A DNA stretch of 10,459 nt from Escherichia coli (GTDB taxonomy: Bacteria; Pseudomonadota; Gammaproteobacteria; Enterobacterales; Enterobacteriaceae): assembly GCF_003334765.1 (NCBI RefSeq), contig NZ_QOWT01000058.1; one strand, given 5' to 3'. The number at the start of each line of letters is the position of its first letter. The stretch's first letter is position 1. A program made the translations under genes and the position numbers. The notes beneath the pieces were generated by a model, which had not been told where the DNA came from, ran no database searches, and saw nothing but the letters and a program-made list of their open reading frames with translations. This document shows, piece after piece, positions 1 to 10,459 of this stretch.

Positions 1-1016
1 ACCGAGAAAGACACTGAAGTTCAAAACACCGAAAGAGATAATTGAAAGGGGTGTTGCATTGACAGATTGAATCTACAACAGCGTATTTTGCACAGGAGTC
101 GCTGAAAAATACGCGTTAATCGAACAATGGCGACAACAATTTCCCATTGAAGCGATGTGTCAGGTATTTGGTGTATCCAGGAGCGGTTATTACAACTGGG
201 TACAGCATGAACCCTCAGACAGAAAACAAAGTGATGAGCGGCTAAAACTGGAGATTAAGGTGGCACATATCCGCACTCGCGAAACATATGGAACCCGGCG
301 GCTCCAGACGGAGCTGGCAGAGAATGGCATCATCGTTGGTCGTGACCGACTGGCACGTCTTCGTAAGGAGCTAAGGCTACGCTGTAAGCAGAAACGCAAG
401 TTCAGAGCGACTACGAACTCGAACCACAATCTGCCAGTTGCGCCAAATCTGCTGAACCAGACGTTCGCTCCTACAGCACCAAATCAGGTCTGGGTGGCGG
501 ACCTGACGTATGTTGCCACACAGGAGGGATGGTTGTACCTCGCTGGCATCAAAGATGTTTATACGTGCGAAATTGTCGGCTACGCCATGGGAGAGCGCAT
601 GACAAAAGAGCTGACAGGTAAAGCCCTGTTTATGGCGCTCAGGAGCCAGCGCCCACCTGCCGGGCTAATCCACCACTCTGATCGAGGTTCACAGTACTGC
701 GCATACGATTACCGGGTCATACAGGAGCAGTTTGGTCTGAAAACATCAATGTCGCGTAAAGGTAACTGTTACGACAACGCTCCGATGGAAAGCTTCTGGG
801 GAACGCTGAAAAATGAGAGCCTGAGCCACTATCGTTTTAATAACCGGGATGAAGCCATCTCAGTAATACGGGAATACATTGAGATTTTCTACAATCGTCA
901 GCGTCGTCACTCTCGTCTGGGGAATATCTCCCCGGCAGCCTTCAGGGAAAAATATCATCAGATGGCTGCTTAAAAAAAGAACAAATGGTAGTGTCCGCTA
1001 TTGCCAGTACACCTCA
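1..1016 (+). mobile_element. IS3-family insertion sequence (possibly IS600-like), 3' ~1 kb; left end lies outside the window
   Basis: OrfB frame is open from 71 and contains the 272-aa ORF 155..973. An OrfA-like C-terminal tail (QIESTTAYFAQESLKNTR, 63..119) sits in the frame that is -1-shifted relative to OrfB, the usual IS3-family arrangement. The proposed right end CCAGTACACCTCA (1004..1016) ends in CA; its reverse complement TGAGGTGTACTGGCAATAGCGGACAC resembles IS3-type terminal repeats as I recall them. The right boundary is an estimate. Confidence 0.7.
155..973 (+). CDS. IS3-family transposase OrfB (DDE integrase-core domain)
   Basis: 272-aa ORF with typical IS3 OrfB features: N-terminal VSRSGYY motif, WLYLA...D, HSDRGSQY and CYDNAPMESFWGTLK motifs. 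In IS3 elements this frame is normally expressed as an OrfAB fusion by -1 frameshifting; the frame is open upstream to 71. The specific IS name is from memory only. Confidence 0.9.
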   Translation: MCQVFGVSRSGYYNWVQHEPSDRKQSDERLKLEIKVAHIRTRETYGTRRLQTELAENGIIVGRDRLARLRKELRLRCKQKRKFRATTNSNHNLPVAPNLLNQTFAPTAPNQVWVADLTYVATQEGWLYLAGIKDVYTCEIVGYAMGERMTKELTGKALFMALRSQRPPAGLIHHSDRGSQYCAYDYRVIQEQFGLKTSMSRKGNCYDNAPMESFWGTLKNESLSHYRFNNRDEAISVIREYIEIFYNRQRRHSRLGNISPAAFREKYHQMAA

Positions 1017-1447
1017 CGCTTCCAGTCTTCGCGGTCGTTGTCGATAACTTCTTTTTTTGCCCAGCGATGGATGCTGCCGTCAATGTTTCCGGCATCCACA
1101 TCACTAGGCCAGAGAGCGTAGGCCAGTTCGTCATCCAGTGTTTTCCATGTCTGCTTGTATTCGCGATGAATGGCAGCAATGACCGGGCTGATTTTTCCTG
1201 TTGAATTTTCAGTGTACTGTTGATTGGCTCTGGCGCGGGCGAGATCAACAACAGACGTGTATTTTCCGGTTTCCTTGCGTTCACCTTCGCGACGTTTTTT
1301 CCAGATGCGCATCTCTGCCTGAATTTCGGGCCATTTAGCACCAGGAATACATTTATGCTTAACCCACCCAATGGCGTGCAACTTAAGCTCCGGATACGGG
1401 TTATTCCCCTCTGAACAGGCGCGTAAGGACTGGCAAAACGCCCGCAA
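998..1447 (-). CDS. hypothetical protein (phage-like), 3' end runs into the IS3-family element
   Basis: 149-codon ORF with protein-like composition, but the first codon is TTG and the first ATG is 46 codons in. The last 5 codons plus stop (998..1016) lie inside the proposed IS terminal sequence, so the native C-terminus may have been replaced by the insertion. A second minus-strand frame (970..1464) has low-complexity translation and is considered spurious. Confidence 0.3.
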   Translation of the reverse strand: MRAFCQSLRACSEGNNPYPELKLHAIGWVKHKCIPGAKWPEIQAEMRIWKKRREGERKETGKYTSVVDLARARANQQYTENSTGKISPVIAAIHREYKQTWKTLDDELAYALWPSDVDAGNIDGSIHRWAKKEVIDNDREDWKREVYWQ

Positions 1448-1466
1448 AAAACTCTCGAGGGCAAAG

Positions 1467-1637
1467 GTGAAGAAACCTGCTGTGGTTGATCCGGACCTTA
1501 TCTGGTCATCACCTGACGGAGAAATACGTCGCTACGACAGTCGCCTAAACATAATCTGTCGCGAGTGCCGGAAGAGCGAAGTTATGCAGCGCATACTGGC
1601 TTTCTATCAGGGTAATTTTCAGGACGTGGCGCAGTGA
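1467..1637 (+). CDS. small hypothetical ORF, translationally coupled (GTGA overlap) to the downstream methyltransferase-like gene
   Basis: The track ORF starts at 1371, but that would overlap the divergent minus-strand ORF. GTG at 1467 is preceded by GAGGG (1457..1461). Its stop TGA (1635..1637) overlaps the GTG start at 1634 of the next ORF. No recognised domain. Confidence 0.25.
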   Translation: MKKPAVVDPDLIWSSPDGEIRRYDSRLNIICRECRKSEVMQRILAFYQGNFQDVAQ

Positions 1638-2080
1638 GTGCACCGGCAACCATTCTTGATATGTGCTGTGGCAGCCGCATGTTCTGGTTCGATAAGTCTG
1701 ACGAACGGGCGATATTCAGCGATATCAGAAAAGAAGGATACACATTACGCAATGGGAGACGCTTGATTATCAGCCCTGACATTATCGCAGATTTTCGTGC
1801 ATTATCATTTGCAGACGCATCTTTTTCGATGGTTGTATTAGACCCTCCGCATCTTGAGAGTGTTGGTGATAACGCCTGGATGGGAAAGAAATATGGACGG
1901 CTGAATAAAGATGCCTGGCGTGATGATTCGCGACAGAGATTTAAAGAAGCCTTTCGGGTGTTGAGGCCGCACGGCGTTCTGATTTTTTAATGGAATGAAA
2001 CGCAAATACCGGTAAGCCAGATTCTGGCACTGACAGACAGAAAACCTGTTATCTGTCAACGAACAGGGAAAAAACGATAA
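1634..2080 (+). pseudogene. SAM-dependent (DNA) methyltransferase-like gene interrupted by an in-frame TAA at 1988..1990
   Basis: Translation contains a motif-I-like DMCCGSR and a motif-IV-like VVLDPPH (DPPY/NPPY class), then LRPHGVLIF before the TAA. The same frame stays open for 29 more codons (WNETQIPVSQILALTDRKPVICQRTGKKR) to TAA 2078..2080. Assignment to the N6-adenine/N4-cytosine methyltransferase class is by motif only. Confidence 0.45.
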
Positions 2081-2252
2081 AACCCACTGGATTATTTTTA
2101 TGAAAGAGGCATCCAGTGAGTAGATTCGTAAGGCTACAGATACGTATATCTGAATAATTAAATTCAGTTCTGTAAATAAAATTTAATCCTTAACCGGATG
2201 GATTTCTGCACCCTCAGAACATCAGGAGGCCGCCCGAAAGGGCGGTAGTGAA

Positions 2253-2363
2253 ATGCGAAAGTTCAAAATTATTATTGAAACGGGAATAGCTGGTGGAGAT
2301 TTTGAGGATGTATTCGAAGTGGACGATGACGCAACACCTGAGGAAATTCATGACGGAGCATAA
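2253..2363 (+). CDS. small acidic hypothetical ORF (36 aa)
   Basis: ATG 2253 to TAA 2361..2363, translation MRKFKIIIETGIAGGDFEDVFEVDDDATPEEIHDGA. AGGAGG lies at 2224..2229, separated from the ATG by a GAAA-capped hairpin (2229..2246). Below the ORF-track length cutoff and unverified. Confidence 0.2.
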   Translation: MRKFKIIIETGIAGGDFEDVFEVDDDATPEEIHDGA

Positions 2364-2412
2364 GAAATTTTCTTTAACTACTGCAATTACTCATACCACG
2401 AAATAAAAGACG

Positions 2413-2604
2413 ATGAGGAAGAACAAAGTGGCTGATTTTTGTTCAGCTAAATATAACATCAGTTTTGAAGAGCGGGATGAACTATTAATGGACTATGGTG
2501 AGTTACGCGGTGGAAGTGCTGCTGATGTCGAATCCTAGCGTGATGACTATGAAGCGGGAAAAACTCCGGTCGAAGCATATTGTGATGAGTGGGGCGATGA
2601 ATGA
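2413..2604 (+). pseudogene. short ORF interrupted by in-frame TAG (2536..2538); probable decayed prophage gene
   Basis: ATG 2413, 41 codons, TAG, then 21 more open codons to TGA 2602..2604. The alternative frame is also open, which fits decayed coding DNA. Confidence 0.2.
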
Positions 2605-2888
2605 GCGAGATTAATTATCAGGAAGGGCATGAAACGGCGGGGCAAGCAAAACCAGTGGCATGGCGATATCGCTACGTGAAAAAAGGCGTTACGGACTTTC
2701 AGGGGAAGTAGTGGTCTGGTGACTGGAAATATGTACCGAAAAAAGAGGATTGTAACGACAGGCCGAACTATCAAATTCAGGCCTTATTCACTGCCTCACC
2801 AGTCCCAGTTACATCAGAAGAACTGGTTAAAGCTGTGCACTTTTATGAACAACTAAAACGCGAAAATCCACCAACATCCGGCAACTAG
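2601..2888 (+). pseudogene. short ORF interrupted by in-frame TAG (2709..2711); probable decayed prophage gene
   Basis: ATG 2601 overlaps the upstream stop (ATGA). 36 codons, TAG, then 58 further open codons (WSGDWKYVPKKEDCNDRPNYQIQALFTASPVPVTSEELVKAVHFYEQLKRENPPTSGN) to TAG 2886..2888. Confidence 0.25.
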
Positions 2889-3142
2889 ATTAATGGATTA
2901 ACTATGTCGGTTAAACGACCAGCCAACTGAAAAAGCGGAAACCTGATTACAGGTTGCCAGATAAGGCAATGAGCTACCTGGCGCGGAACGGACTGATAAG
3001 TATGGGGAATGTTTTACGATGAACCTTTAGACTAAAGAGTTTGTAACGCTATGTAAGTGATTTTTTCTGGTTTAGATATTTATATGTCCGGCCAAATTGA
3101 GGTGTGTTTAAATGTAATTGCACATTGATTGTAGGAGGAATA

Positions 3143-3322
3143 ATGAAAAACGCATTGCAGTTTTTGTTTGTTGCGTTCTGGTTGTTCGCATCATGTATGC
3201 CCATCATCTTCACAGCAAGGTATATGGAAAAAGTTGATGTTTTGATATTAATATTTGGATATATAAATGCCCTTTTTTTAGGGGTGTTCATGGCGGTCAT
3301 GTGCATTGAATACTGGCGGTAA
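3143..3322 (+). CDS. small predicted membrane protein (59 aa, two hydrophobic helices) in an AT-rich islet
   Basis: Strong Shine-Dalgarno AGGAGG (3133..3138) 4 nt before ATG 3143. Translation MKNALQFLFVAFWLFASCMPIIFTARYMEKVDVLILIFGYINALFLGVFMAVMCIEYWR has two hydrophobic segments. Local GC content is low. The track lists a longer 3104 start with no ribosome-binding site. Confidence 0.4.
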   Translation: MKNALQFLFVAFWLFASCMPIIFTARYMEKVDVLILIFGYINALFLGVFMAVMCIEYWR

Positions 3323-3508
3323 ATACAGCGAACTCCATTGGTTTAGTTGGATATTTACTGTGCTGGACAAAAACGGTTTGCGGGGAAATCTTAGTTAAGT
3401 AGAATGACTGCGGGTGCTTGAGGCTATCTGCCTCGGGCATGGACACCAACGGCAGATAGAGAAAAGCCCCAGTTAACATTACGCGTCCTGCAAGACGCTT
3501 AACATTAA

Positions 3509-3590
3509 TCTGAGGCCAATTTCATGCTAGACACATGTAGGTTAGCCTCTTACGTGCCGAAAGGCACGGAGAAGCAGGCTATTGTTAACA
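3509..3590 (+). other. degenerate relE-3'end/hok-leader-like segment (paralogous remnant of the hokD translation-initiation region), no intact toxin ORF
   Basis: 3568..3582 GGAGAAGCAGGCTAT is identical to the hokD ribosome-binding site and start region at 6857..6871. The upstream hairpin CGTGCC-GAAA-GGCACG (3553..3568) parallels CACC-GAA-GGTG (6824..6834) with compensatory changes. 3509..3537 weakly resembles 6794..6818. The start position reads ATT and only 6 codons follow before TAA. Confidence 0.4.
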
Positions 3591-3627
3591 CCAAGCTGTA
3601 ATGTCCCCTTTGAACCATTCTAAAATG

Positions 3628-3654
3628 TCCCCAGACAATTCTCTGGGGGATTTT
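3628..3654 (+). other. stem-loop CCCCAGA-caattc-TCTGGGG plus T-run directly upstream of the transposase start
   Basis: 7-bp perfect stem followed by GATTTTTC, ending 2 nt before ATG 3657. It is terminator-like; it may insulate the transposase gene from read-in transcription or be part of the IS end. Confidence 0.4.
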
Positions 3655-3656
3655 TC

Positions 3657-4970
3657 ATGATCAAAGAGACTGTTACGATGAGTCATAAGGAACTCCACCG
3701 ACTTCAGATTATTCAGGAACAAGCTGCGGCACGCATTGGCATTTCTATTCGGCAGGTTAAACGTCTGGTGCAACGGTATAGAAATGAAGGGCCTTCTGGT
3801 CTGGTTTCCCACCGACGTGGAAAGCGTCCTAATAATTCCTTTTCTACTGAATTCAGAGCAACAGTAATTTCACTCCTCAAAGGCCGTTACGCTGATTTTG
3901 GACCTACGTTTGCGTGCGAAAAATTGCGCGAGATACACGGTTTATCTTTATCCGTTGAAACTCTCAGAAAGTGGATGATAGAAGAGGGGTTATGGCGTGA
4001 ACGCCGTCGTAAAATTGCCCGTATATATCAACGCCGCATGCGACGACCATCTTACGGTGAACTGATCCAGATTGATGGCTCACCTCATGACTGGTTTGAA
4101 AATCGAGGCCCCAGATGTACACTGATCGTTTTCATTGATGATGCCACCAGTGCGTTGATGGCGTTGCGTTTTGTGCCTGCTGAAACAACCCGGGCTTACA
4201 TGGAAACCCTCCGGGGTTACCTTAATGATCATGGCGTACCGCTCGCTCTCTACTCTGATAGACACAGTATATTCAGGGTAAATAACCCAGAGCGGGAAGG
4301 TGAGCTGACCCAGTTCACTCGTGCGATAAAGACACTGGGCATCGAGCCAATCCATGCCAACAGCCCGCAGGCAAAAGGGCGGGTAGAGCGCGCCAATCAG
4401 ACACTACAGGACAGGCTGGTCAAAGAAATGCGGCTTCAGAATATCAGTGATATTGAAACAGCAAATGCATGGTTGCCGACCTTTATTGAAGCCTATAACA
4501 ACCGGTTCGCTACGTCGCCTCGTACTACTGATAATGCTCATCTTGATGTGCACCATTCTGAAGAGGAACTGGGTTATATCTTCAGCCTACAGGCGAAGCG
4601 CGTTCTGTCTAAAAATCTCACTTTCCAGTACAAAAGCAGTGCGTTTCAGGTACGCAGTGAGGGCCGGGGATATCGACTTAGGCATTCGGTTGTTACTGTA
4701 TGCGAGAACTTTGACGGTGAAATTAACGTTCTGTATGACGGGAAAGCGCTGGGCTGGGAAAAGTATGTTGATGGCCCGGAGCCTATACCACTGGATGATG
4801 AAAAGAGTGTCCATGAACGAGTGGATAATGCCCGTATTGATTTACGCTCAAAATACTATGTTAAACCTAAAGCTGACCATCCCTGGCTTACGCGCCGAAC
4901 GCAAAGTCATCAGCAAGTTAAGCCCCCGAAGTTACCTAAAAAGAAGCCTGATCCCGATAAAAAAGATTGA
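3657..4970 (+). CDS. DDE transposase with N-terminal helix-turn-helix and integrase-core domain (ISNCY/IS1202-group or IS481-like)
   Basis: 437-aa ORF. The N-terminus (RIGISIRQVKRLVQRYRNEG) looks like a helix-turn-helix. Candidate catalytic residues are D in IQIDGSPHDW, D in ALYSDRHSIF and E in KGRVERANQTL. The basic lysine/proline-rich C-terminus is typical of transposases. GGGGGA precedes the ATG by 7 nt. Family assignment is from memory. Confidence 0.85.
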   Translation: MIKETVTMSHKELHRLQIIQEQAAARIGISIRQVKRLVQRYRNEGPSGLVSHRRGKRPNNSFSTEFRATVISLLKGRYADFGPTFACEKLREIHGLSLSVETLRKWMIEEGLWRERRRKIARIYQRRMRRPSYGELIQIDGSPHDWFENRGPRCTLIVFIDDATSALMALRFVPAETTRAYMETLRGYLNDHGVPLALYSDRHSIFRVNNPEREGELTQFTRAIKTLGIEPIHANSPQAKGRVERANQTLQDRLVKEMRLQNISDIETANAWLPTFIEAYNNRFATSPRTTDNAHLDVHHSEEELGYIFSLQAKRVLSKNLTFQYKSSAFQVRSEGRGYRLRHSVVTVCENFDGEINVLYDGKALGWEKYVDGPEPIPLDDEKSVHERVDNARIDLRSKYYVKPKADHPWLTRRTQSHQQVKPPKLPKKKPDPDKKD

Positions 4971-5366
4971 AACCAAGATCGATTCGGTTGAGTGCATATC
5001 CATTCATAGGGTAGATTCTTAAGTCGCGTTTCTGGTGTTCATTTTCGGGTGGTTTGTTACTTGTTTTACCGGGGATATGCCAGAAACGCGCTGAGTCAGT
5101 CTGGGCGGTGCGCGTAATGAGGCGTTATGGTAAATAGCCTATGCTAATGTCCGCTAAGAGCAAGAAGCGGAAGTTGGCAGTTTTGTGGACTGTCCCCACA
5201 AAAGTGACTACAGAAATAGTTGCAATTCATAATTGATCATGGGTTGTCAGTTAAACTCGTGGCGATTTAAATAGACTAATTGGGAGTGCGTCCATTACTT
5301 ATATCTTGTAATGTTAACTATCAGAAATGATACAAAGATAATATGTCTTTAAAGAAAAGGCTGATG

Positions 5367-5392
5367 GCGAAAAGTGGCCCGATGAGGGCCAC
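5367..5392 (-). terminator. rho-independent terminator of flxA
   Basis: Hairpin GTGGCCC-gatga-GGGCCAC (5374..5392). On the minus strand it is followed by TTTTCGCC, 14 nt downstream of the flxA stop. Confidence 0.5.
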
Positions 5393-5406
5393 AATACGGC
5401 TGTCAC

Positions 5407-5739
5407 TTAGACGTAAATATCAATGGTGCCAGCGGTATTTGTATCGTCTTTTTTCTCTTCTTTTTTATCAGGCTGAACTGTCGCGTCTTCATTCTTTTTC
5501 TCTGCCTGCTGCCTTAACAACTGCTCCAGTTGAGCCCAGAGGCTTTCAATTTGCTTCTGTACCAATGCAGCCATTTCTTTTTTCTGCTGTGTCGTCATCC
5601 CCTCTTCCGATGAGATTTTCCCAAGCTTTTCAGTCAGCACCTGAATTTGTCTTGTGATTTTGGCTATTTCTGATGTTCCTTCCGGGGCGGAGTTGTTTGA
5701 AATAACGGTTGAGGTATTTCCCTGAATTGTGACAGACAT
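5407..5739 (-). CDS. flxA: FlxA (FliA-regulated prophage protein)
   Basis: 110-aa ORF (MSVTIQGNTSTVISNNSAPEG...QQKKEMAALVQKQIESLWAQLEQLL...) recognised from memory as E. coli FlxA. GGAG lies 7 nt upstream of the ATG on the minus strand, and a sigma-28 promoter lies just upstream. Confidence 0.85.
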   Translation of the reverse strand: MSVTIQGNTSTVISNNSAPEGTSEIAKITRQIQVLTEKLGKISSEEGMTTQQKKEMAALVQKQIESLWAQLEQLLRQQAEKKNEDATVQPDKKEEKKDDTNTAGTIDIYV

Positions 5740-5762
5740 AGATTTCTCCTTTTAAAAAAGCA

Positions 5763-5789
5763 CTATCGGCATGCACAAAAAAATCTTTA
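5763..5789 (-). promoter_or_regulatory. sigma-28 (FliA) promoter for flxA
   Basis: Minus strand reads TAAAGATT-N11-GCCGATAG against the class-3 flagellar consensus TAAAGTTT-N11-GCCGATAA (14/16). The -10 element ends about 24 nt upstream of the flxA ATG. Confidence 0.6.
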
Positions 5790-5941
5790 ATCGTATTTCT
5801 TGTGTCATTAATTGTTTGATGTTCAGATTGTTTTCCTCGCGGGCTGGCGCGCCTCAGAAAGTAAAGCTTGTTGACAGGGGTAAACGTTCGGCAATAATTT
5901 TCTGCCGCATGCGGGTGTTGCATAAAACGTGTTACGTTCCT

Positions 5942-6247
5942 TTATCGACAGGTCAGGTCACCGCTCACCCGCCGACGAGAAAGCAACACTGACATGCTAA
6001 AGCAAAAAATAGATGAATAAGTTGAGTTGTGCATATGTAGCCTGACCGTCACAAAGTATATGGTGTCTGTACCAGTAAGATGATGGCCGGACTCTTTAAA
6101 AACGAGCTGACCTGCACAATACAGGATGGACTTAGCAATGGCTGCTCCTGGCACAAAGCGGACAGTGATCACCGTTCTTACGACTACTTTCTGACTTCCT
6201 TCGTGACTTGCCCTAAGCATGTTGTAGTGCGATACTTGTAATGACAT
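5942..6247 (-). CDS. ydfV: YdfV-like hypothetical ORF (doubtful coding status)
   Basis: 101-codon ORF at the position where K-12 annotates ydfV, as I recall. Its ATG (6245..6247) lies inside the relBE operator repeats and the translation is S/T/C-rich and poorly protein-like, so it is kept at low confidence. Confidence 0.4.
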   Translation of the reverse strand: MSLQVSHYNMLRASHEGSQKVVVRTVITVRFVPGAAIAKSILYCAGQLVFKESGHHLTGTDTIYFVTVRLHMHNSTYSSIFCFSMSVLLSRRRVSGDLTCR

Positions 6248-6259
6248 TTGTAATTACAA
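6208..6259 (+). promoter_or_regulatory. relBE promoter and operator (relO)
   Basis: -35 TTGCCC (6208..6213), 17-nt spacer, -10 GATACT (6231..6236). TTGTAAT repeats at 6236..6242 and 6248..6254, and the palindrome TTGTAATTACAA (6248..6259), lie between the promoter and the relB ATG at 6272. This is the classic RelB-RelE autoregulation site. Confidence 0.65.
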
Positions 6260-6271
6260 GAGGTGTAAGAC

Positions 6272-6511
6272 ATGGGTAGCATTAACCTGCGTATTGACGA
6301 TGAACTTAAAGCGCGTTCTTACGCCGCGCTTGAAAAAATGGGTGTAACTCCTTCTGAAGCGCTTCGTCTCATGCTCGAGTATATCGCTGACAATGAACGC
6401 TTGCCGTTCAAACAGACACTCCTGAGTGATGAAGATGCTGAACTTGTGGAGATAGTGAAAGAACGGCTTCGTAATCCTAAGCCAGTACGTGTGACGCTGG
6501 ATGAACTCTGA
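6272..6511 (+). CDS. relB: RelB antitoxin
   Basis: 79-aa ORF MGSINLRIDDELKARSYAALEKMGVTPSEALRLMLEYIADNERLPFKQTLLSDEDAELVEIVKERLRNPKPVRVTLDEL, near-identical to E. coli RelB from memory. Its stop overlaps the relE start (TGATG). Confidence 0.93.
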   Translation: MGSINLRIDDELKARSYAALEKMGVTPSEALRLMLEYIADNERLPFKQTLLSDEDAELVEIVKERLRNPKPVRVTLDEL

Positions 6512-6798
6512 TGGCGTATTTTCTGGATTTTGACGAGCGGGCACTAAAGGAATGGCGAAAGCTGGGCTCGACGGTACGTGAACAGTTGAAAAAGAAGCTG
6601 GTTGAAGTACTTGAGTCACCCCGGATTGAAGCAAACAAGCTCCGTGGTATGCCTGATTGTTACAAGATTAAGCTCCGGTCTTCAGGCTATCGCCTTGTAT
6701 ACCAGGTTATAGACGAGAAAGTTGTCGTTTTCGTGATTTCTGTTGGGAAAAGAGAACGCTCGGAAGTATATAGCGAGGCGGTCAAACGCATTCTCTGA
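6511..6798 (+). CDS. relE: RelE mRNA interferase toxin
   Basis: 95-aa ORF MAYFLDFDERALKEWRKLGSTVREQLKKKLVEVLESPRIEANKLRGMPDCYKIKLRSSGYRLVYQVIDEKVVVFVISVGKRERSEVYSEAVKRIL, recognised as RelE. It is translationally coupled to relB. Confidence 0.93.
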   Translation: MAYFLDFDERALKEWRKLGSTVREQLKKKLVEVLESPRIEANKLRGMPDCYKIKLRSSGYRLVYQVIDEKVVVFVISVGKRERSEVYSEAVKRIL

Positions 6799-6869
6799 AC
6801 CAAAGCATGACATCTCTGTTTCGCACCGAAGGTGACACTTCTGCTTTGCGTTGACAGGAGAAGCAGGCT

Positions 6870-7025
6870 ATGAAGCAGCAAAAGGCGATGTTAATCGCCC
6901 TGATCGTCATCTGTTTAACCGTCATAGTGACGGCACTGGTAACGAGGAAAGACCTCTGCGAGGTACGAATCCGAACCGGCCAGACGGAGGTCGCTGTCTT
7001 CACAGCTTACGAACCTGAGGAGTAA
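6870..7025 (+). CDS. hokD: HokD (RelF) Hok-family type I membrane toxin
   Basis: 51-aa ORF MKQQKAMLIALIVICLTVIVTALVTRKDLCEVRIRTGQTEVAVFTAYEPEE, not in the ORF track because it is short. It has a ribosome-binding site GGAG at 6857..6860. The Hok family signature is a transmembrane helix followed by LCE. Confidence 0.9.
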   Translation: MKQQKAMLIALIVICLTVIVTALVTRKDLCEVRIRTGQTEVAVFTAYEPEE

Positions 7026-7083
7026 GAGACCCGGCGGGGGAGAAATCCCTCGCCACCTCTGATGTGGCAGGCATCCTCAACGC

Positions 7084-7115
7084 ACCCGCACTTAACCCGC
7101 TTCGGCGGGTTTTTG
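7084..7115 (+). terminator. rho-independent terminator after the relB-relE-hokD operon
   Basis: Hairpin CCCGC-ttcg-GCGGG (7086..7099) followed by TTTTTGTTTTTATTTT (7100..7115). Confidence 0.6.
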
Positions 7116-7241
7116 TTTTTATTTTCAACGCGTTTGAAGTTCTGGACGGTGCCGGAATAGAATCAAAAATACTTAAGTAGCGCGCAGGGATAAGAGGGAT
7201 GGTCCCTTAAAGGGGAGAGCTAATTATCCGGAAGGATTCTG

Positions 7242-7493
7242 ATGATGAACATCGAAGAACTGCGTAAAATTTTTTGTGAAGATGGCCTCTATGCTGTGTG
7301 CGTTGAAAATGGAAATCTTGTTAGTCATTACCGCATTATGTGTTTGCGAAAGAATGGGGCTGCGTTAATTAATTTTGTGGATGCTCGGGTCACGGACGGA
7401 TTTATCTTGCGCGAAGGTGAGTTTGTCACTTCATTACAGGCATTGAAAGAGATCGGAATAAAAGCTGGCTTTTCTGCTTTTTCAGGAGAATAA
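7242..7493 (+). CDS. rem: Rem-like prophage protein
   Basis: 83-aa ORF MMNIEELRKIFCEDGLYAVCVENGNLVSHYRIMCLRKNGAALINFVDARVTDGFILREGEF..., matching Qin prophage Rem by memory and by its position between hokD and ydfU. Confidence 0.8.
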   Translation: MMNIEELRKIFCEDGLYAVCVENGNLVSHYRIMCLRKNGAALINFVDARVTDGFILREGEFVTSLQALKEIGIKAGFSAFSGE

Positions 7494-7559
7494 ACTCATC
7501 TACAATCTTGCGCGGGGCTGAACTCCCGCTGAGTAACACCGTGCCACCGGAGAAAACCG

Positions 7560-7838
7560 ATGGCACGCAACGCAAAATATTACAATTCTGATAATTCGCC
7601 CGTTCTTGCCTGCACGCACGGGCGGTATTCTCACGCATTCAAGTCTGAATGGTTCCAGCACCCTCCATGCACTGCAGAACAGGCCGAATGGCTGATTCAT
7701 TCTTACCGCAGGCGCGGGTTCGAGGTTAAGAAAGCTCTCAGTCTCGACTATCGGCACTGGATAATCTCTGTCAGGCTGCCTTATTCCGAACGCCCACCAC
7801 GTGCGTCCCGCACTTTCCAGCAACGGATCTGGAGGTAA
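7560..7838 (+). CDS. hypothetical prophage protein (92 aa), tightly coupled to ydfU
   Basis: GGAG sits 7 nt upstream of the ATG. Its stop at 7836..7838 is followed 1 nt later by the ydfU GTG start, whose ribosome-binding site GGAGG (7831..7835) lies inside this ORF. No recognised domain. Confidence 0.45.
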   Translation: MARNAKYYNSDNSPVLACTHGRYSHAFKSEWFQHPPCTAEQAEWLIHSYRRRGFEVKKALSLDYRHWIISVRLPYSERPPRASRTFQQRIWR

Positions 7839-7839
7839 C

Positions 7840-8889
7840 GTGCGGGTATTACTTAGACCTGTTCTGGTGCCTGAGCTTGGGCTGGTGGTCCTTAAGCCGG
7901 GCCGTGAATCCATACAGATATTTCATAATCCTCGAGTGCTGGTGGAACCGGAACCAAAAAGCATGCGTAATCTGCCATCCGGAGTCGTTCCTGCCGTTCG
8001 CCAGCCGCTGGCGGAAGACAAAACATTGCTGCCGTTTTTTAGTAACGAACGGGTGATTCGTGCTGCTGGCGGCGTTGGCGCATTGTCCGACTGGCTATTA
8101 CGTCATGTTACATCCTGCCAGTGGCCTAATGGCGATTACCATCACACTGAAACAGTCATTCACCGTTATGGTACCGGCGCAATGGTGTTGTGCTGGCACT
8201 GCGACAACCAACTGCGTGACCAGACATCGGAATCACTGGAGCTGCTTGCTCAACAAAATCTGACAGCATGGGTGATTGACGTCATCCGTCACGCAATAAG
8301 CGGTACGCAGGAGCGGGAATTATCTTTGGCTGAATTATCCTGGTGGGCGGTCTGCAATCAGGTGGTGGATGCACTACCTGAGGCTGTATCGCGTCGTTCG
8401 CTGGGATTACCAGCGGAAAAAATCTGCTCGGTGTACCGCGAAAGCGACATCGTACCGGGAGAGCAGACCGCCACCAGCATATTGAAACAACGCACAAAAA
8501 ATCTTGCACCGTTGCCTTACGCCCACCAGCAACAAAAATCACCACAGGAAAAGACGGTGGTAAGCATCACCGTTGATCCAGAGTCTCCGGAATCTTTCAT
8601 GAAGCTGCCTAAACGTCGCCGCTGGGTTAAGGAGAAATACACACGTTGGGTTAAGACACAGCCGTGTGCTTGCTGCGGTATGCCAGCCGACGATCCGCAT
8701 CATCTGATTGGTCACGGGCAGGGCGGAATGGGAACAAAAGCACATGATCTCTTTGTGTTGCCTTTGTGCAGAAAGCATCACAACGAGCTGCATACGGATA
8801 CAGTGGCATTTGAAGATAAGTATGGCTCCCAACTGGAGCTGATATTTCGTTTTATCGATCGCGCGCTGGCAATTGGCGTACTGGCGTAA
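7840..8889 (+). CDS. ydfU: YdfU-like DUF968 protein (HNH-like C-terminal motif)
   Basis: The track ORF 7801..8889 is trimmed to GTG 7840, which is preceded by GGAGG, giving 349 aa. The C-terminus CACCGMPADDPHHLIGHGQGGMGTKAHDLFVLPLCRKHHNELH has a Cys/His pattern like HNH/zinc-binding nucleases. Identity is from memory. Confidence 0.8.
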   Translation: MRVLLRPVLVPELGLVVLKPGRESIQIFHNPRVLVEPEPKSMRNLPSGVVPAVRQPLAEDKTLLPFFSNERVIRAAGGVGALSDWLLRHVTSCQWPNGDYHHTETVIHRYGTGAMVLCWHCDNQLRDQTSESLELLAQQNLTAWVIDVIRHAISGTQERELSLAELSWWAVCNQVVDALPEAVSRRSLGLPAEKICSVYRESDIVPGEQTATSILKQRTKNLAPLPYAHQQQKSPQEKTVVSITVDPESPESFMKLPKRRRWVKEKYTRWVKTQPCACCGMPADDPHHLIGHGQGGMGTKAHDLFVLPLCRKHHNELHTDTVAFEDKYGSQLELIFRFIDRALAIGVLA

Positions 8890-8902
8890 GTGGAGAACGA
8901 GC

Positions 8903-9655
8903 ATGAACCTTGAAGCCTTACCAAAATATTACTCCCCAAAATCTCCAAAATTGAGCGATGACGCTCCAGCGACAGGCACCGGTTGTTTAACAATTACGGA
9001 TGTAATGGCAGCGCAGGGGATGGTGCAGTCGAAAGCACCACTTGGGTTGGCCTTATTTCTGGCAAAAGTTGGTGTTCAGGACCCTCAGTTTGCGATTGAA
9101 GGCCTGCTAAATTACGCGATGGCACTGGATAACCCGACATTGAACAAATTGAGTGAAGAAATCCGGTTACAGATTATTCCTTACCTCGTGAGTTTTGCCT
9201 TTGCTGATTACTCCAGGTCTGCGGCAAGTAAGGCTCGCTGTGAGCATTGTTCAGGTACGGGATTTTATAATGTATTGCGCGAAGTGGTGAAACACTACAG
9301 ACGCGGGGAATCTGTAATCAAGGAAGAATGGGTGAAGGAACTATGTCAGCATTGCCATGGTAAGGGCGAAGCCAGCACAGCGTGCAGAGGGTGTAAGGGT
9401 AAAGGGATTGTTCTGGATGAAAAAAGAACCCGGTTTCATGGCGTACCGGTATATAAGATTTGTGGGCGTTGTAATGGAAACCGGTTTAGTCGTTTACCGA
9501 CCACGCTGGCACGACGTCATGTCCAGAAGCTGGTACCAGACCTGACCGATTATCAGTGGTATAAGGGGTATGCGGACGTCATTGGTAAACTGGTAACAAA
9601 GTGCTGGCAGGAAGAAGCATACGCGGAAGCGCAATTGAGGAAGGTGACGAGATAA
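8903..9655 (+). CDS. quuQ: Q-family late-gene antiterminator (QuuQ-like)
   Basis: 250 aa from ATG 8903, which has GGAG 6 nt upstream; the track ORF starts 10 codons earlier. Contains several CxxC pairs (CEHCSGTG, CQHCHGKG, CRGCKGKG, CGRCNGN) and is followed by a promoter-terminator pair arranged like lambdoid P_R'-tR'. Confidence 0.85.
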   Translation: MNLEALPKYYSPKSPKLSDDAPATGTGCLTITDVMAAQGMVQSKAPLGLALFLAKVGVQDPQFAIEGLLNYAMALDNPTLNKLSEEIRLQIIPYLVSFAFADYSRSAASKARCEHCSGTGFYNVLREVVKHYRRGESVIKEEWVKELCQHCHGKGEASTACRGCKGKGIVLDEKRTRFHGVPVYKICGRCNGNRFSRLPTTLARRHVQKLVPDLTDYQWYKGYADVIGKLVTKCWQEEAYAEAQLRKVTR

Positions 9656-9686
9656 ATGATTTTTGCTGAAGATGGCGACATGATGT

Positions 9687-9715
9687 TTGCATTTTTCAAA
9701 AAATATGGATAAAAT
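9687..9715 (+). promoter_or_regulatory. putative late promoter (P_R'-like sigma-70 promoter) downstream of quuQ
   Basis: -35 TTGCAT (9687..9692), 17-nt spacer, -10 TAAAAT (9710..9715), beginning 32 nt after the quuQ stop. Confidence 0.5.
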
Positions 9716-9760
9716 TTTTTCAACGATGGGCTTTGTATACCCGACGTTAAGAAAAAGTAG

Positions 9761-9790
9761 AAAACCCGCTGATGAGCGGGTTTTGTGCTT
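9761..9790 (+). terminator. rho-independent terminator (tR'-like, possibly bidirectional)
   Basis: Hairpin CCCGCT-gatg-AGCGGG (9765..9780) followed by TTTTGTGCTTT. An A-run precedes it, so it could also act on the minus strand. It lies about 50-60 nt downstream of the predicted start of the putative late promoter. Confidence 0.55.
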
Positions 9791-10076
9791 TAAATGGGGC
9801 AATGGTAATGTTGAATCTCATCCCGGGACTCATGTCTGTTAACTTATTATTTAGCTGGTGACTTGGTTATTTGCCTGATGTTTAAAATGTTTTCTTCCAG
9901 TACAATGTCCCTAAACACAATGAGTCTGCTTATTATATTATTAGCAGAGCTATTACGGCCAAAGTACAGCATAAGCTTTTAAAGCCAATCAACCAGTCAT
10001 CAAGACAGACGGGGTTATTCATAAAAACTCTCCATGTGTGATCCGATGGGGCCTGAAATTAAAGCTTTAATATAGC

Positions 10077-10289
10077 TCATGAAAGGTAAACATTGGCAGC
10101 TGAAGGGCCACGCAGACCATTTATCCGGCAAAATTCCACGCGTAATCCGGTGGTAATTTCTTCTGCATCGCGGAGATTGAGCGCTGAAACATGAAGCTGG
10201 ACATCGATACGACCATCGGATGGGGTGATAAGACCCTTGCCGCTTTTGCCGTCAAAGGTTTTGACAATTCCTGTCATTTTACGGGACAA
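10077..10289 (-). CDS. cspF: cold-shock-domain protein, CspF/CspH family
   Basis: 70-aa [73 protein letters not shown] with CspA-family motifs. It is convergent with quuQ. The first codon is TTG, with AAGGA 6 nt upstream. Confidence 0.8.
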
Positions 10290-10459
10290 AAAAATTCCTT
10301 AATACTGATAACTTGGCGCACTATACACACGTTCCTGAAGAAAGCTATAGTTTTTTGATGGGGTTGAAGATGGCTGGATGTCTAAGGAAGGTGCGAATAA
10401 GCGGGGAAATACTTCTCGGCTGACTCAGTCATTTCATTTCTTCATGTTTGAGCCGATTT

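What the first reader, a model, noticed from the sequence alone, without database searches (positions are those of the whole stretch)
7560..8889. Tightly coupled 92-aa ORF and DUF968/HNH-like ydfU upstream of Q
The 92-aa ORF has its own ribosome-binding site and ends 1 nt before the ydfU GTG start, so the two look like an operon pair. YdfU ends with a Cys/His-rich motif typical of HNH or zinc-binding nucleases. Both sit in the nin-like region upstream of Q, where accessory nucleases and regulators often cluster.
Basis: partly seen in the sequence, partly recalled or inferred. Interest (0 to 1): 0.3.

Follow-up and report, generated by a model that had tools for sequence, protein, structure and literature searches.

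The report
Small phage gene coupled to YdfU nuclease
This is an ordinary piece of the defective Qin prophage of E. coli K-12: a real 92-residue gene that the MG1655 reference annotation omits, joined end to end with ydfU, a zinc-finger HNH nuclease gene of unknown role, just upstream of the late-gene antiterminator Q.

Summary
Window 4786-10385 matches K-12 MG1655 Qin with one mismatch. A 92-aa ORF (7560-7838, GGAG 7 nt upstream) stops 1 nt before the conserved GTG start of ydfU (7840-8889). The ydfU Shine-Dalgarno (GGAGG) lies in the last two codons of the small ORF.

The small ORF is a real gene. Its 66-aa core has dN/dS of 0.07-0.15, it belongs to PHROG 1212 (about 105 clusters at 50% identity), and its beta-alpha-beta-beta core is predicted confidently. 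It has no Pfam, PDB or lambda Nin relative. PGAP calls it hypothetical; NC_000913.3 does not annotate it.

The pair is fixed in Qin-type prophages but is not an obligate partnership. Most distant YdfU homologues lack the small gene. The small gene sits just upstream of NinG/Rap, YbcO/DUF1364, YdfU or RusA, and identical small proteins precede different nucleases.

Best reading: a co-translated recombination or DNA-processing module. The anatomy is shown; the biochemistry is inferred. The features are already known, so interest is low to moderate.

The parts
7549..7552 (+). Shine-Dalgarno (GGAG) of the 92-aa ORF, 7 nt before its ATG
   Evidence: Read directly from the sequence.
7560..7637 (+). 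N-terminal 26-codon extension of the small ORF. It is specific to Escherichia Qin-type prophages and supplies the only usable start codon.
   Evidence: It is absent from the 65-68 aa relatives. It is predicted to be disordered, with pLDDT below 50. Constraint is relaxed, with dN/dS of 0.4 or more. There is no in-frame ATG, GTG or TTG between 7563 and the start of the core.
7638..7838 (+). Conserved 66-aa core of the small protein (PHROG 1212 family) plus its stop codon. The fold is beta-alpha-beta-beta with a basic C-terminal tail, PRxSRxxQQRxW(R/G).
   Evidence: - phrog_1212 matches at E = 1.7e-35 over residues 27-92.
- About 105 clusters at 50% identity were found in an exhaustive search.
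- AF2 gives pLDDT above 90 for residues 28-75.
- dN/dS is 0.07-0.15.
7831..7842 (+). Coupling junction: GGAGG (SD for ydfU, formed by the Trp91-Arg92 codons), TAA stop, C, then the GTG start of ydfU.
   Evidence: Sequence. The same TGG-(A/G)GG-stop-N1-3-start layout recurs in nearly all related loci, whichever gene follows.
7840..8889 (+). ydfU: 349 aa, GTG start, a DUF968 family HNH (His-Me finger) protein.
   Evidence: - Pfam DUF968 at E = 2.5e-76 and HNHc_6 at E = 1.3e-5.
- phrog_96 'HNH endonuclease' at E = 2.8e-171.
- RefSeq WP_001265198.1.
- It differs from K-12 b1560 only at Q209 (L in K-12).
8101..8217 (+). Conserved motif of the YdfU N-terminal domain (residues 88-126): R88, C93, Q94, H101, C118, W119, C121, D122, N123. 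It is probably a second zinc site on a beta-hairpin plus helix.
   Evidence: - The columns are invariant or nearly invariant across 17 homologues, down to 27% identity.
- AF2 predicts strands 105-110 and 113-118 and helix 119-125, with pLDDT of about 80-93.
- Similarity to the C-terminal HNH is not significant: hhalign E = 0.25 and BLASTP HSP E = 0.4.
8665..8793 (+). Zinc-finger HNH catalytic core of YdfU (residues 276-318): C276-x2-C279, H287-H288, C310-x2-H313-H314, H318.
   Evidence: - Conservation is shown.
- AF2 predicts beta 285-288, beta 306-309 and helix 311-319.
- hhalign against YbcO-like proteins gives E = 7.7e-5.
- The region is 41% identical over 59 aa to PhiNM1 Gp16.
7242..7493 (+). 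rem, the upstream neighbour in Qin-type prophages (context).
   Evidence: Annotated. The hokD-rem-small-ydfU block is conserved in Qin-type loci. The small-ydfU pair also occurs without rem.
8903..9655 (+). ydfT/quuQ, the Q-type late antiterminator, starting 13 nt after the ydfU stop (context).
   Evidence: phrog_127 at E = 2.9e-105; annotation.

Best explanation
**What is shown**
- The region holds two real prophage genes from the nin-type (replication-to-Q) early operon of cryptic prophage Qin.
- The first is a small protein with a 66-aa beta-alpha-beta-beta core (PHROG 1212) behind a disordered, lineage-specific 26-aa leader.
- Its last two codons form the ribosome-binding site of the next gene, and its stop lies 1 nt before that gene's start. 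The two are therefore built to be translated together.
- The second gene, ydfU, encodes a two-domain protein. Its C-terminal 90 residues are an intact zinc-finger HNH (beta-beta-alpha-metal) nuclease domain of the DUF968/DUF1364 group.
- Across phages the small gene lies in the DNA recombination block. It is usually directly upstream of a nuclease (NinG/Rap, YbcO, YdfU, RusA, or a DnaQ-like exonuclease) and often directly downstream of a recombination mediator (NinB/Orf, YbcN, DUF1367, or an RdgC-like protein).

**What is inferred**
- YdfU nicks or cuts DNA recombination or replication intermediates, such as branched DNA or RecA-coated D-loops. This is what its nearest characterised relatives do: P1 Ref, PhiNM1 Gp16 and lambda Rap. 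It would act during early lytic development, before Q switches on late genes. I put this at about 50%, and RecA dependence specifically at about 25%.
- The small protein acts in the same pathway as a generic, co-expressed accessory, for example by binding DNA or a host factor through its basic, Trp-ending tail. It is not a partner tailored to one nuclease. I put this at about 45%.
- In K-12 itself the genes may be silent cargo of a defective prophage.
For: **The small ORF is a real gene**
- dN/dS of the core is 0.07-0.15 at pS of about 0.4.
- A family of about 105 clusters at 50% identity exists.
- The AF2 core is predicted confidently.
- PGAP annotates it as a gene.

**Coupling**
- The junction geometry is visible in the sequence.
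- It is conserved across loci regardless of the downstream gene.
- The start at 7840 is the conserved one.

**YdfU is an HNH protein**
- Pfam DUF968 matches at E = 2.5e-76.
- The motif residues are all present.
- AF2 predicts a beta-beta-alpha fold.
- YdfU was placed in His-Me finger group 7 together with YbcO (PMC5714182).

**Link to recombination nucleases**
- The HNH core is 41% identical to PhiNM1 Gp16. Gp16 is a RecA-dependent nickase (PMC12817073).
- Pfam hits cross reciprocally: Gp16 is HNHc_6 with a DUF968 side-hit, and YdfU is DUF968 with an HNHc_6 side-hit.
- RusA often follows ydfU.
- In locus L092 a phage recA and a lexA-like gene precede the small-DUF968 pair.

**Position of the small gene**
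- In 196 loci forming 12 clusters at 70% identity, a nuclease is immediately adjacent in 7 clusters and NinG lies 200-1200 nt downstream in 4.
- Additional lineages show the same pattern.
- NinB-family genes lie directly upstream in many loci.
Against: - No biochemical or genetic data exist for YdfU, for P1 PdcB (listed as function unknown in PMC10067587) or for the small protein.
- The Pfam match to the Ref family is not significant (E = 0.02).
- YdfU lacks the NinB-like N-terminal domain of Gp16.
- The small protein has no detectable relative of known function.
- Most YdfU homologues manage without the small protein.
- Identical small proteins precede different nucleases, and DNA homology breaks exactly at the small gene's stop. 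The adjacency may therefore reflect conserved gene order and a convenient recombination joint rather than joint function.
- Qin is a defective prophage, so present-day function in this host is uncertain.
Confidence: 0.55

Rival explanations
1. The small protein has a function of its own, unrelated to the nuclease. It sits next to ydfU only because nin-region gene order is conserved, and because the stop/SD/start junction at its 3' end is a favoured crossover point where nuclease cassettes are swapped.
For: - Identical small proteins are followed by NinG in L115 and by YbcO plus RusA in L114. DNA identity of 98% runs through ninB and the small gene and ends at the small gene's stop.
- In four lineages, one to four other genes separate it from NinG.
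- Most YdfU homologues lack it.
- In some lineages it overlaps the upstream NinB gene instead.
Against: - It is never found downstream of the nuclease.
- Immediate adjacency in 7 of 12 clusters is well above the roughly 1 in 10 expected for a random slot among nin genes.
- The coupling junction is maintained with every cassette type.
- AFDB holds two proteins in which the small domain is fused to DUF1364 (not verified).
Confidence: 0.3
2. The small protein is a cognate inhibitor or immunity factor (antitoxin-like) that holds the HNH nuclease in check. This would make the pair a toxin-antitoxin or defence-type module.
For: - The layout is a small upstream gene tightly coupled to a nuclease gene.
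- The neighbourhood is rich in toxin-antitoxin genes (relBE, hokD).
- One phage record labels the ORF 'toxin to Rem'.
- Overexpressed Gp16-type HNH proteins are toxic (PMC12817073).
Against: - There is no cognate specificity: the same small protein precedes NinG, YbcO or RusA.
- Most YdfU homologues have no such gene.
- No PADLOC defence model matches either protein.
- No NCBIfam model matches either.
Confidence: 0.06
3. The 92-aa ORF is a chance reading frame in the rem-ydfU spacer, as the MG1655 reference annotation implies by leaving it out.
For: - NC_000913.3 annotates nothing between rem and ydfU.
- The first 26 codons show no purifying selection and are predicted to be disordered.
- There is no Pfam or NCBIfam match.
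Against: - The core has dN/dS of 0.07-0.15.
- Homologues reach down to about 30% identity across Enterobacterales phages, with in-frame indels only.
- The predicted fold is confident.
- The RBS is good.
- PGAP and many phage records call it a gene.
Confidence: 0.02
4. YdfU is not a recombination enzyme. It is instead a selfish homing-type HNH or an HNH that assists the terminase in DNA packaging.
For: - HNH proteins of both kinds are common in phages (PMC12817073 introduction).
- In P1 the homologue pdcB lies two genes upstream of pacA and pacB.
Against: - In lambdoid phages ydfU always sits in the early nin region just before Q, or before RusA then Q, and far from the terminase genes.
- It is a stable syntenic gene, not an insertion.
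- Its closest relatives by structure and sequence are Ref, YbcO and Gp16, not the HK97 gp74 type.
Confidence: 0.07

Closest known systems
E. coli K-12 YdfU (b1560), Pfam DUF968 / His-Me finger group 7 (Jablonska et al. 2017, PMC5714182)
   Same: It is the same gene. Window 4786-10385 matches MG1655 Qin with one mismatch. The DUF968 match covers the full model.
   Different: One substitution, Q209 here versus L in K-12, in the poorly conserved linker. Upstream of 4786 the window carries IS elements that are not present at this place in MG1655.
DLP12 YbcO (DUF1364, PDB 3g27)
   Different: YbcO is a single domain of about 96 aa. YdfU has an additional N-terminal region of about 190 aa and a linker of about 65 aa.
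Bacteriophage P1 Ref (PDB 3plw), a RecA-dependent HNH endonuclease
   Different: - The Pfam RecA_dep_nuc match is not significant (E = 0.02).
- Ref has a disordered basic N-terminus (PMC4330346), whereas YdfU has a folded N-terminal domain.
- RecA dependence of YdfU is untested.
- P1 carries its own full-length YdfU homologue, PdcB, at 26% identity.
Staphylococcus phage PhiNM1 Gp16 (Pfam HNHc_6), a RecA-dependent nickase (PMC12817073)
   Same: It is 41% identical over the 59-residue HNH core, with the same CxxC..H..CxxHH..H spacing. The Pfam cross-hits are reciprocal.
   Different: Gp16 has a NinB-like N-terminal domain. The YdfU N-terminal region shows no similarity to NinB, YbcN or DUF1367. 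In enterobacterial phages the NinB-type protein is a separate gene, with the small gene lying between it and the nuclease.
Lambda NinG/Rap and the small lambda Nin proteins (NinD, NinE, NinF, NinH)
   Same: NinG occupies the same nin-region position, as a branch-specific endonuclease with a Cys/His motif. In many phages the small-protein family sits directly upstream of NinG, where lambda has NinE and NinF.
   Different: The YdfU C-domain is only marginally similar to NinG (hhalign probability 22%). The small protein shows no similarity to NinD, NinE, NinF, NinH or NinB (hhalign probability 0.5% or less).
PHROG 1212 (phage protein family of unknown function)
   Same: Residues 27-92 of the ORF match the whole 66-position profile at E = 1.7e-35.
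   Different: The Escherichia Qin-type members carry an extra, poorly conserved 26-residue N-terminus, which provides the start codon.

Membership tests
Pfam DUF968 (PF06147) | Significant match to the family profile over its full length | tested here: met
   E = 2.5e-76, model positions 1-171 of 171, residues 160-346.
His-Me finger / zinc-finger HNH nucleases | A beta-beta-alpha-metal fold carrying the general-base His, the helix Asn/His and the terminal metal-binding His, framed by CxxC and Cxx(C/H) zinc ligands | tested here: met
   - Residues C276, C279, H287, H288, C310, H313, H314 and H318 are conserved.
- AF2 predicts beta 285-288, beta 306-309 and helix 311-319.
His-Me finger / zinc-finger HNH nucleases | Metal-dependent nuclease activity | not testable with these tools
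   This requires purified protein. No published assay for YdfU was found.
RecA-dependent nucleases (P1 Ref, PF16786; PhiNM1 Gp16) | Significant sequence membership in the Ref family profile | tested here: inconclusive
RecA-dependent nucleases (P1 Ref, PF16786; PhiNM1 Gp16) | Cleavage only of RecA-bound DNA or D-loops | not testable with these tools
   This is a biochemical property (PMC3973344, PMC12817073).
Orf(NinB)-HNH fusion architecture, as described for Gram-positive DUF968/HNHc_6 proteins (Curtis et al. 2014, PMC4118853) | An N-terminal domain homologous to lambda Orf/NinB | tested here: not met
   - hhalign of YdfU residues 1-54 and 55-195 against NinB, YbcN and DUF1367 gives probability of 1% or less.
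- Pfam finds nothing in residues 1-159.
PHROG 1212 small phage protein | Significant full-length match to the profile | tested here: met
   E = 1.7e-35, profile positions 1-66 of 66.
Lambda NinD / NinE / NinF / NinH small nin proteins | Detectable sequence or profile similarity | tested here: not met
   hhalign probability is 0.5% or less for each. There is no Pfam hit even at E of 10 or less.
Translationally coupled operon pair | Same strand, a stop-start distance of a few bases, and the downstream Shine-Dalgarno inside the upstream ORF | tested here: met
   The junction reads TGG AGG TAA C GTG. The same layout recurs across related loci. Actual coupling of translation was not measured.
Toxin-antitoxin or nuclease-immunity pair | A cognate, co-varying partnership between the small protein and its nuclease | tested here: not met
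   Identical small proteins sit upstream of NinG, YbcO or RusA. Most YdfU homologues lack the small gene. There are no PADLOC hits.

The most novel reading that the evidence does not exclude
The 66-aa core protein is a universal accessory of the phage nin recombination module. It is always placed between the recombination mediator (NinB/Orf, YbcN, DUF1367 or RdgC-like) and whichever DNA nuclease the phage carries (NinG/Rap, YbcO, YdfU, RusA or a DnaQ-like exonuclease), and it is co-translated with that nuclease. It may hand substrates such as RecA- or SSB-coated or branched DNA from mediator to nuclease, using its basic, Trp-ending tail. YdfU itself would be a RecA-dependent HNH nickase whose conserved N-terminal C-H-C-C/D-N module is a degenerate second HNH-like zinc module used for targeting.
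Probability: 0.12. Interest if true: 0.5.

Novelty: already known. Interest (0 to 1): 0.25.

Why it matters
- The practical result is an annotation correction. A conserved 92-codon gene under purifying selection is missing from the MG1655 reference record, although automatic pipelines call it.
- YdfU is a K-12 gene of unknown function found in most E. coli genomes, often in several copies. Its nearest characterised relatives are both RecA-dependent nucleases, which gives a concrete and cheap biochemical hypothesis.
- The small protein recurs next to interchangeable nuclease cassettes. If that reflects joint function, it would add an unrecognised component to the lambdoid Orf/Rap/RusA recombination toolkit.
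- None of this overturns current understanding.

Tried and rejected
- **Orf/NinB-like N-terminus in YdfU**, as reported for Gram-positive DUF968 proteins. hhalign against NinB, YbcN, DUF1367 and lambda NinB found nothing.
- **Small protein as NinD, NinE, NinF or NinH.** No similarity.
- **P1 PdcA**, the 66-aa gene upstream of the YdfU homologue PdcB, as a relative of the small protein. The sequences are unrelated and fall in different PHROGs.
- **Remnant of a ninB gene** in the rem-small spacer or the N-terminal extension. tblastn and blastn found nothing.
- **Defence-system models.** None match.
- **NCBIfam.** None for either protein.
- **Internal duplication of the HNH module in YdfU.** hhalign aligns residues 92-129 with 278-321 in register, but at E = 0.25, which is not significant.
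- **Repeats, RNA families and promoter or terminator scans in 7400-9000.** Nothing notable.
- **Locus searches with diverse alignments.** Single-protein queries were used instead.
Full report
**What the window is.** The ORF list and sequence give the gene order flxA, ydfV, relB, relE, hokD, rem, a 92-aa ORF, ydfU, ydfT/quuQ, cspF. Window 4786-10385 is 99.98% identical to the cryptic prophage Qin of E. coli K-12 MG1655. The single mismatch is at 8465, giving YdfU Q209 where K-12 has L. Upstream of 4786 the window carries transposase ORFs that are not present at this place in MG1655.

**The observation.** It is correct to the base.
- The small ORF runs from ATG 7560 to TAA 7836-7838, with GGAG 7 nt upstream.
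- One base then separates its stop from GTG 7840, which opens ydfU (349 aa, ending at 8889).
- The mechanical ORF of ydfU reaches back to GTG 7801. In many related loci the longest ORF begins only at the 7840-equivalent position, and all 17 aligned homologues start there with M(R/K)xLL.
- The ydfU Shine-Dalgarno, GGAGG, is formed by the last two sense codons (Trp-Arg) of the small ORF.
- In related loci the junction reads TGG-(A/G)GG-stop, then 1-3 nt, then a start codon. This holds whatever gene follows.

**Is the 92-aa ORF a gene?** Yes.
- It matches PHROG 1212 at E = 1.7e-35, but only over residues 27-92.
- An exhaustive profile search found about 105 clusters at 50% identity, nearly all 65-68 aa long. 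Alignments show a conserved core and in-frame indels only.
- Against Qin-type relatives 82-90% identical in DNA, the core has pN of about 0.05, pS of about 0.4 and dN/dS of 0.07-0.15. The first 26 codons show no such constraint.
- AlphaFold2 with a 47-sequence alignment gives pLDDT above 90 for a beta-alpha-beta-beta core (residues 28-75) and a disordered N-terminus.
- The extension is confined to Escherichia Qin-type prophages. It supplies the only start codon, because there is no in-frame start at the point where the 66-aa forms begin.
- PGAP annotates the ORF as hypothetical protein WP_012304870.1. The curated MG1655 record leaves the 346-nt rem-ydfU interval empty, although the ORF there is identical.
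- The ORF occurs in 2391 of 5426 complete E. coli genomes.

**What YdfU is.**
- Pfam gives DUF968 at E = 2.5e-76 (residues 160-346), with weaker HNHc_6 (1.3e-5) and RecA_dep_nuc (0.02) hits. PHROG 96 'HNH endonuclease' covers the full length.
- The literature already places YdfU with YbcO (PDB 3g27) in His-Me finger group 7 (PMC5714182). No functional study was found.
- I aligned 17 homologues reaching down to 27% identity: E. coli, Klebsiella, Citrobacter, Yersinia, Serratia and Vibrio phages, and P1 PdcB.
- The C-terminal motif C276-x2-C279 ... H287-H288 ... C310-x2-H313-H314 ... H318 is intact in the window.
- The AF2 model (mean pLDDT 72.6) has two ordered parts, residues 55-190 and 260-349, joined by a disordered linker. 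The C-terminal part has beta 285-288, beta 306-309 and helix 311-319.
- A profile comparison with YbcO-like proteins gives E = 7.7e-5, and with NinG only a marginal score.
- A 2026 paper describes PhiNM1 Gp16 as a RecA-dependent HNH nickase with a NinB-like N-terminal domain (PMC12817073). I located Gp16 in the phage record by its published CVIC and CREH motifs. It is Pfam HNHc_6 with a DUF968 side-hit, and it shares 41% identity with YdfU over the 59-residue HNH core.
- YdfU's two nearest characterised relatives, Ref and Gp16, are therefore both RecA-dependent nucleases. That is a lead, not a demonstration.

**The YdfU N-terminal domain.**
- It is not Orf/NinB-like, unlike the Gram-positive proteins discussed by Curtis et al. 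(PMC4118853).
- It carries its own invariant set (R88, C93, Q94, C118, D122, N123, plus H101, W119 and C121) on a predicted hairpin plus helix.
- By eye this lines up with the C-terminal HNH motif, and hhalign aligns the two in register. The score is not significant, however (E = 0.25).

**Do the two genes belong together?**
- Within Qin-type prophages they do. In 80 viral contigs the block hokD-rem-small-ydfU recurs with the same 1-nt spacing. 78 of 80 loci in that cluster have ydfU adjacent. The pair also occurs without rem. This is shared ancestry, so it counts as one observation.
- Independent support comes from a metagenomic phage. There, a 67-aa relative (about 41% identical) overlaps the start of a 353-aa DUF968 gene, downstream of recA and a lexA-like gene and upstream of a Q-like gene. 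In Citrobacter phage Chris1 the order is small-RusA-YdfU.
- Most distant YdfU homologues have no such gene. These include cdtI, mEp390, Klebsiella LV-2017, YeP2, BZS1, Pm34, Vibrio Her and P1, whose upstream PdcA is unrelated.
- Conversely, the small family sits directly upstream of several other nucleases:
  - NinG/Rap in Gifsy-2 and GF-2, and a short NinG-type gene in L222;
  - YbcO/DUF1364 in mEp237, phiES15 and Klebsiella ST974;
  - RusA in L112;
  - a DnaQ-like exonuclease in L226.
  In other phages it lies one to four genes upstream of NinG.
- Over 196 loci with enough flank, forming 12 clusters at 70% identity, a nuclease is immediately adjacent in 7 clusters and NinG lies 200-1200 nt downstream in 4. 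The nuclease is never upstream.
- The gene directly upstream is often a recombination mediator: NinB-family STM1020, YbcN, DUF1367, NinB, or an RdgC-like protein.
- The partnership is not cognate. L114 and L115 encode identical small proteins followed by YbcO plus RusA and by NinG respectively. Their 98% DNA identity ends at the small gene's stop. A 92%-identical protein precedes RusA directly.

**Interpretation.**
- Shown: two real genes, a built-in coupling junction, an intact zinc-finger HNH domain, and a recombination-module neighbourhood.
- Inferred, at about 50%: YdfU cuts or nicks recombination or replication intermediates, as Ref, Gp16 and Rap do. RecA dependence specifically is about 25% likely.
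- Inferred, at about 45%: the small protein works in the same pathway as a generic accessory.
- The main rival, at about 30%, is that the small protein is functionally independent and adjacent only through conserved gene order and a reusable crossover joint.
- An immunity or antitoxin role is unlikely, given the lack of cognate specificity and the absence of defence-model hits.
- A spurious ORF is excluded as far as sequence evidence allows.
- A packaging or homing HNH role fits neither the position of ydfU nor its relatives.
- In K-12, Qin is defective, so present-day expression and function are open questions.

**Novelty and interest.** YdfU and its HNH assignment are published, and the small ORF is called by PGAP and belongs to a catalogued PHROG. 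New here are four points:
- evidence that the ORF missing from NC_000913.3 is a selected gene;
- the nuclease-independent coupling junction;
- the swap of nuclease cassettes behind identical small proteins;
- the link from YdfU to two RecA-dependent nucleases.

These are useful but incremental, so interest is about 0.25.

Noticed in passing
window 7560-7838 (MG1655 NC_000913.3 about 1,644,306-1,644,584, minus strand): The curated MG1655 reference record annotates nothing between rem and ydfU. The 92-codon ORF there is identical to the window's and is annotated by PGAP in other genomes as WP_012304870.1.
   Followed up: yes
window 8101-8217 (YdfU residues 88-126): The N-terminal domain has an invariant C93-Q94 ... 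H101 ... C118-W-x-C121-D122-N123 set on a predicted hairpin plus helix. This lines up in register with the C-terminal HNH motif. It is retained even in P1 PdcB, where the C-terminal catalytic histidines are degenerate. Similarity between the two modules is not statistically significant.
   Followed up: partly
loci L007-L010, L092 and L101-L103 (YdfU homologues): YdfU-family genes sit immediately upstream of the late-gene activator in every phage examined. The activators are Q proteins of several unrelated families, sometimes with RusA in between. In P1, pdcB directly precedes lpa, the late promoter activator.
   Followed up: partly
L092:375-3431: In a metagenomic phage contig, a phage-encoded RecA and a LexA-like repressor gene lie just upstream of the small-gene/DUF968 pair. 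This may bear on the RecA-dependent nuclease idea.
   Followed up: no
AFDB entries A0A2X2YPE4 (Citrobacter koseri, 166 aa) and A0A939NUB8 (Klebsiella pneumoniae, 177 aa): Foldseek found two database proteins in which the small-protein domain is fused to a YbcO/DUF1364 protein. They could be true fusions or frameshift or annotation artefacts of the 4-nt overlapping genes. The sequences were not inspected.
   Followed up: no
window 7560-7637: The 26-codon N-terminal extension of the small ORF differs from many relatives by 6-8 nonsynonymous and 0-1 synonymous changes. The region is too short for this to be significant, but it contrasts oddly with the core.
   Followed up: partly
window 3412-3583 (+): Rfam finds a full-length sok antitoxin RNA (RF01794, 104 bits). 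It lies just upstream of the 437-aa transposase ORF at 3657-4970, in the part of the window that does not match MG1655 Qin.
   Followed up: no
window 1-4785: This part of the window is not collinear with MG1655 Qin. It contains an IS3-family-like transposase ORF (155-973) and a 437-aa transposase-like ORF (3657-4970). The source strain therefore carries IS insertions or rearrangements upstream of flxA.
   Followed up: partly
window 7242-7493 (rem); L105:2501-2779: Rem has a weak, sub-threshold NCBIfam hit to the SocB replication-inhibitor toxin (E = 0.0099, 14.9 bits against a cut-off of 210). One phage record labels the small ORF 'toxin to Rem'. No evidence was found for either label.
   Followed up: no
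proteins P0096, P0097, P0123-P0126: Deletion or fusion variants exist in E. coli assemblies. In one, the first 54-60 residues of the small ORF are joined to a Q fragment (20 contigs) or to a DUF968 fragment. Others are 607-aa YdfU-Q fusions carrying a Pfam family, PF27659, that the Pfam scans run here did not report.
   Followed up: no
window 8465: This is the only difference from MG1655 in 5.6 kb: A here versus T in K-12. It changes YdfU codon 209 from Leu to Gln, in the disordered linker.
   Followed up: yes
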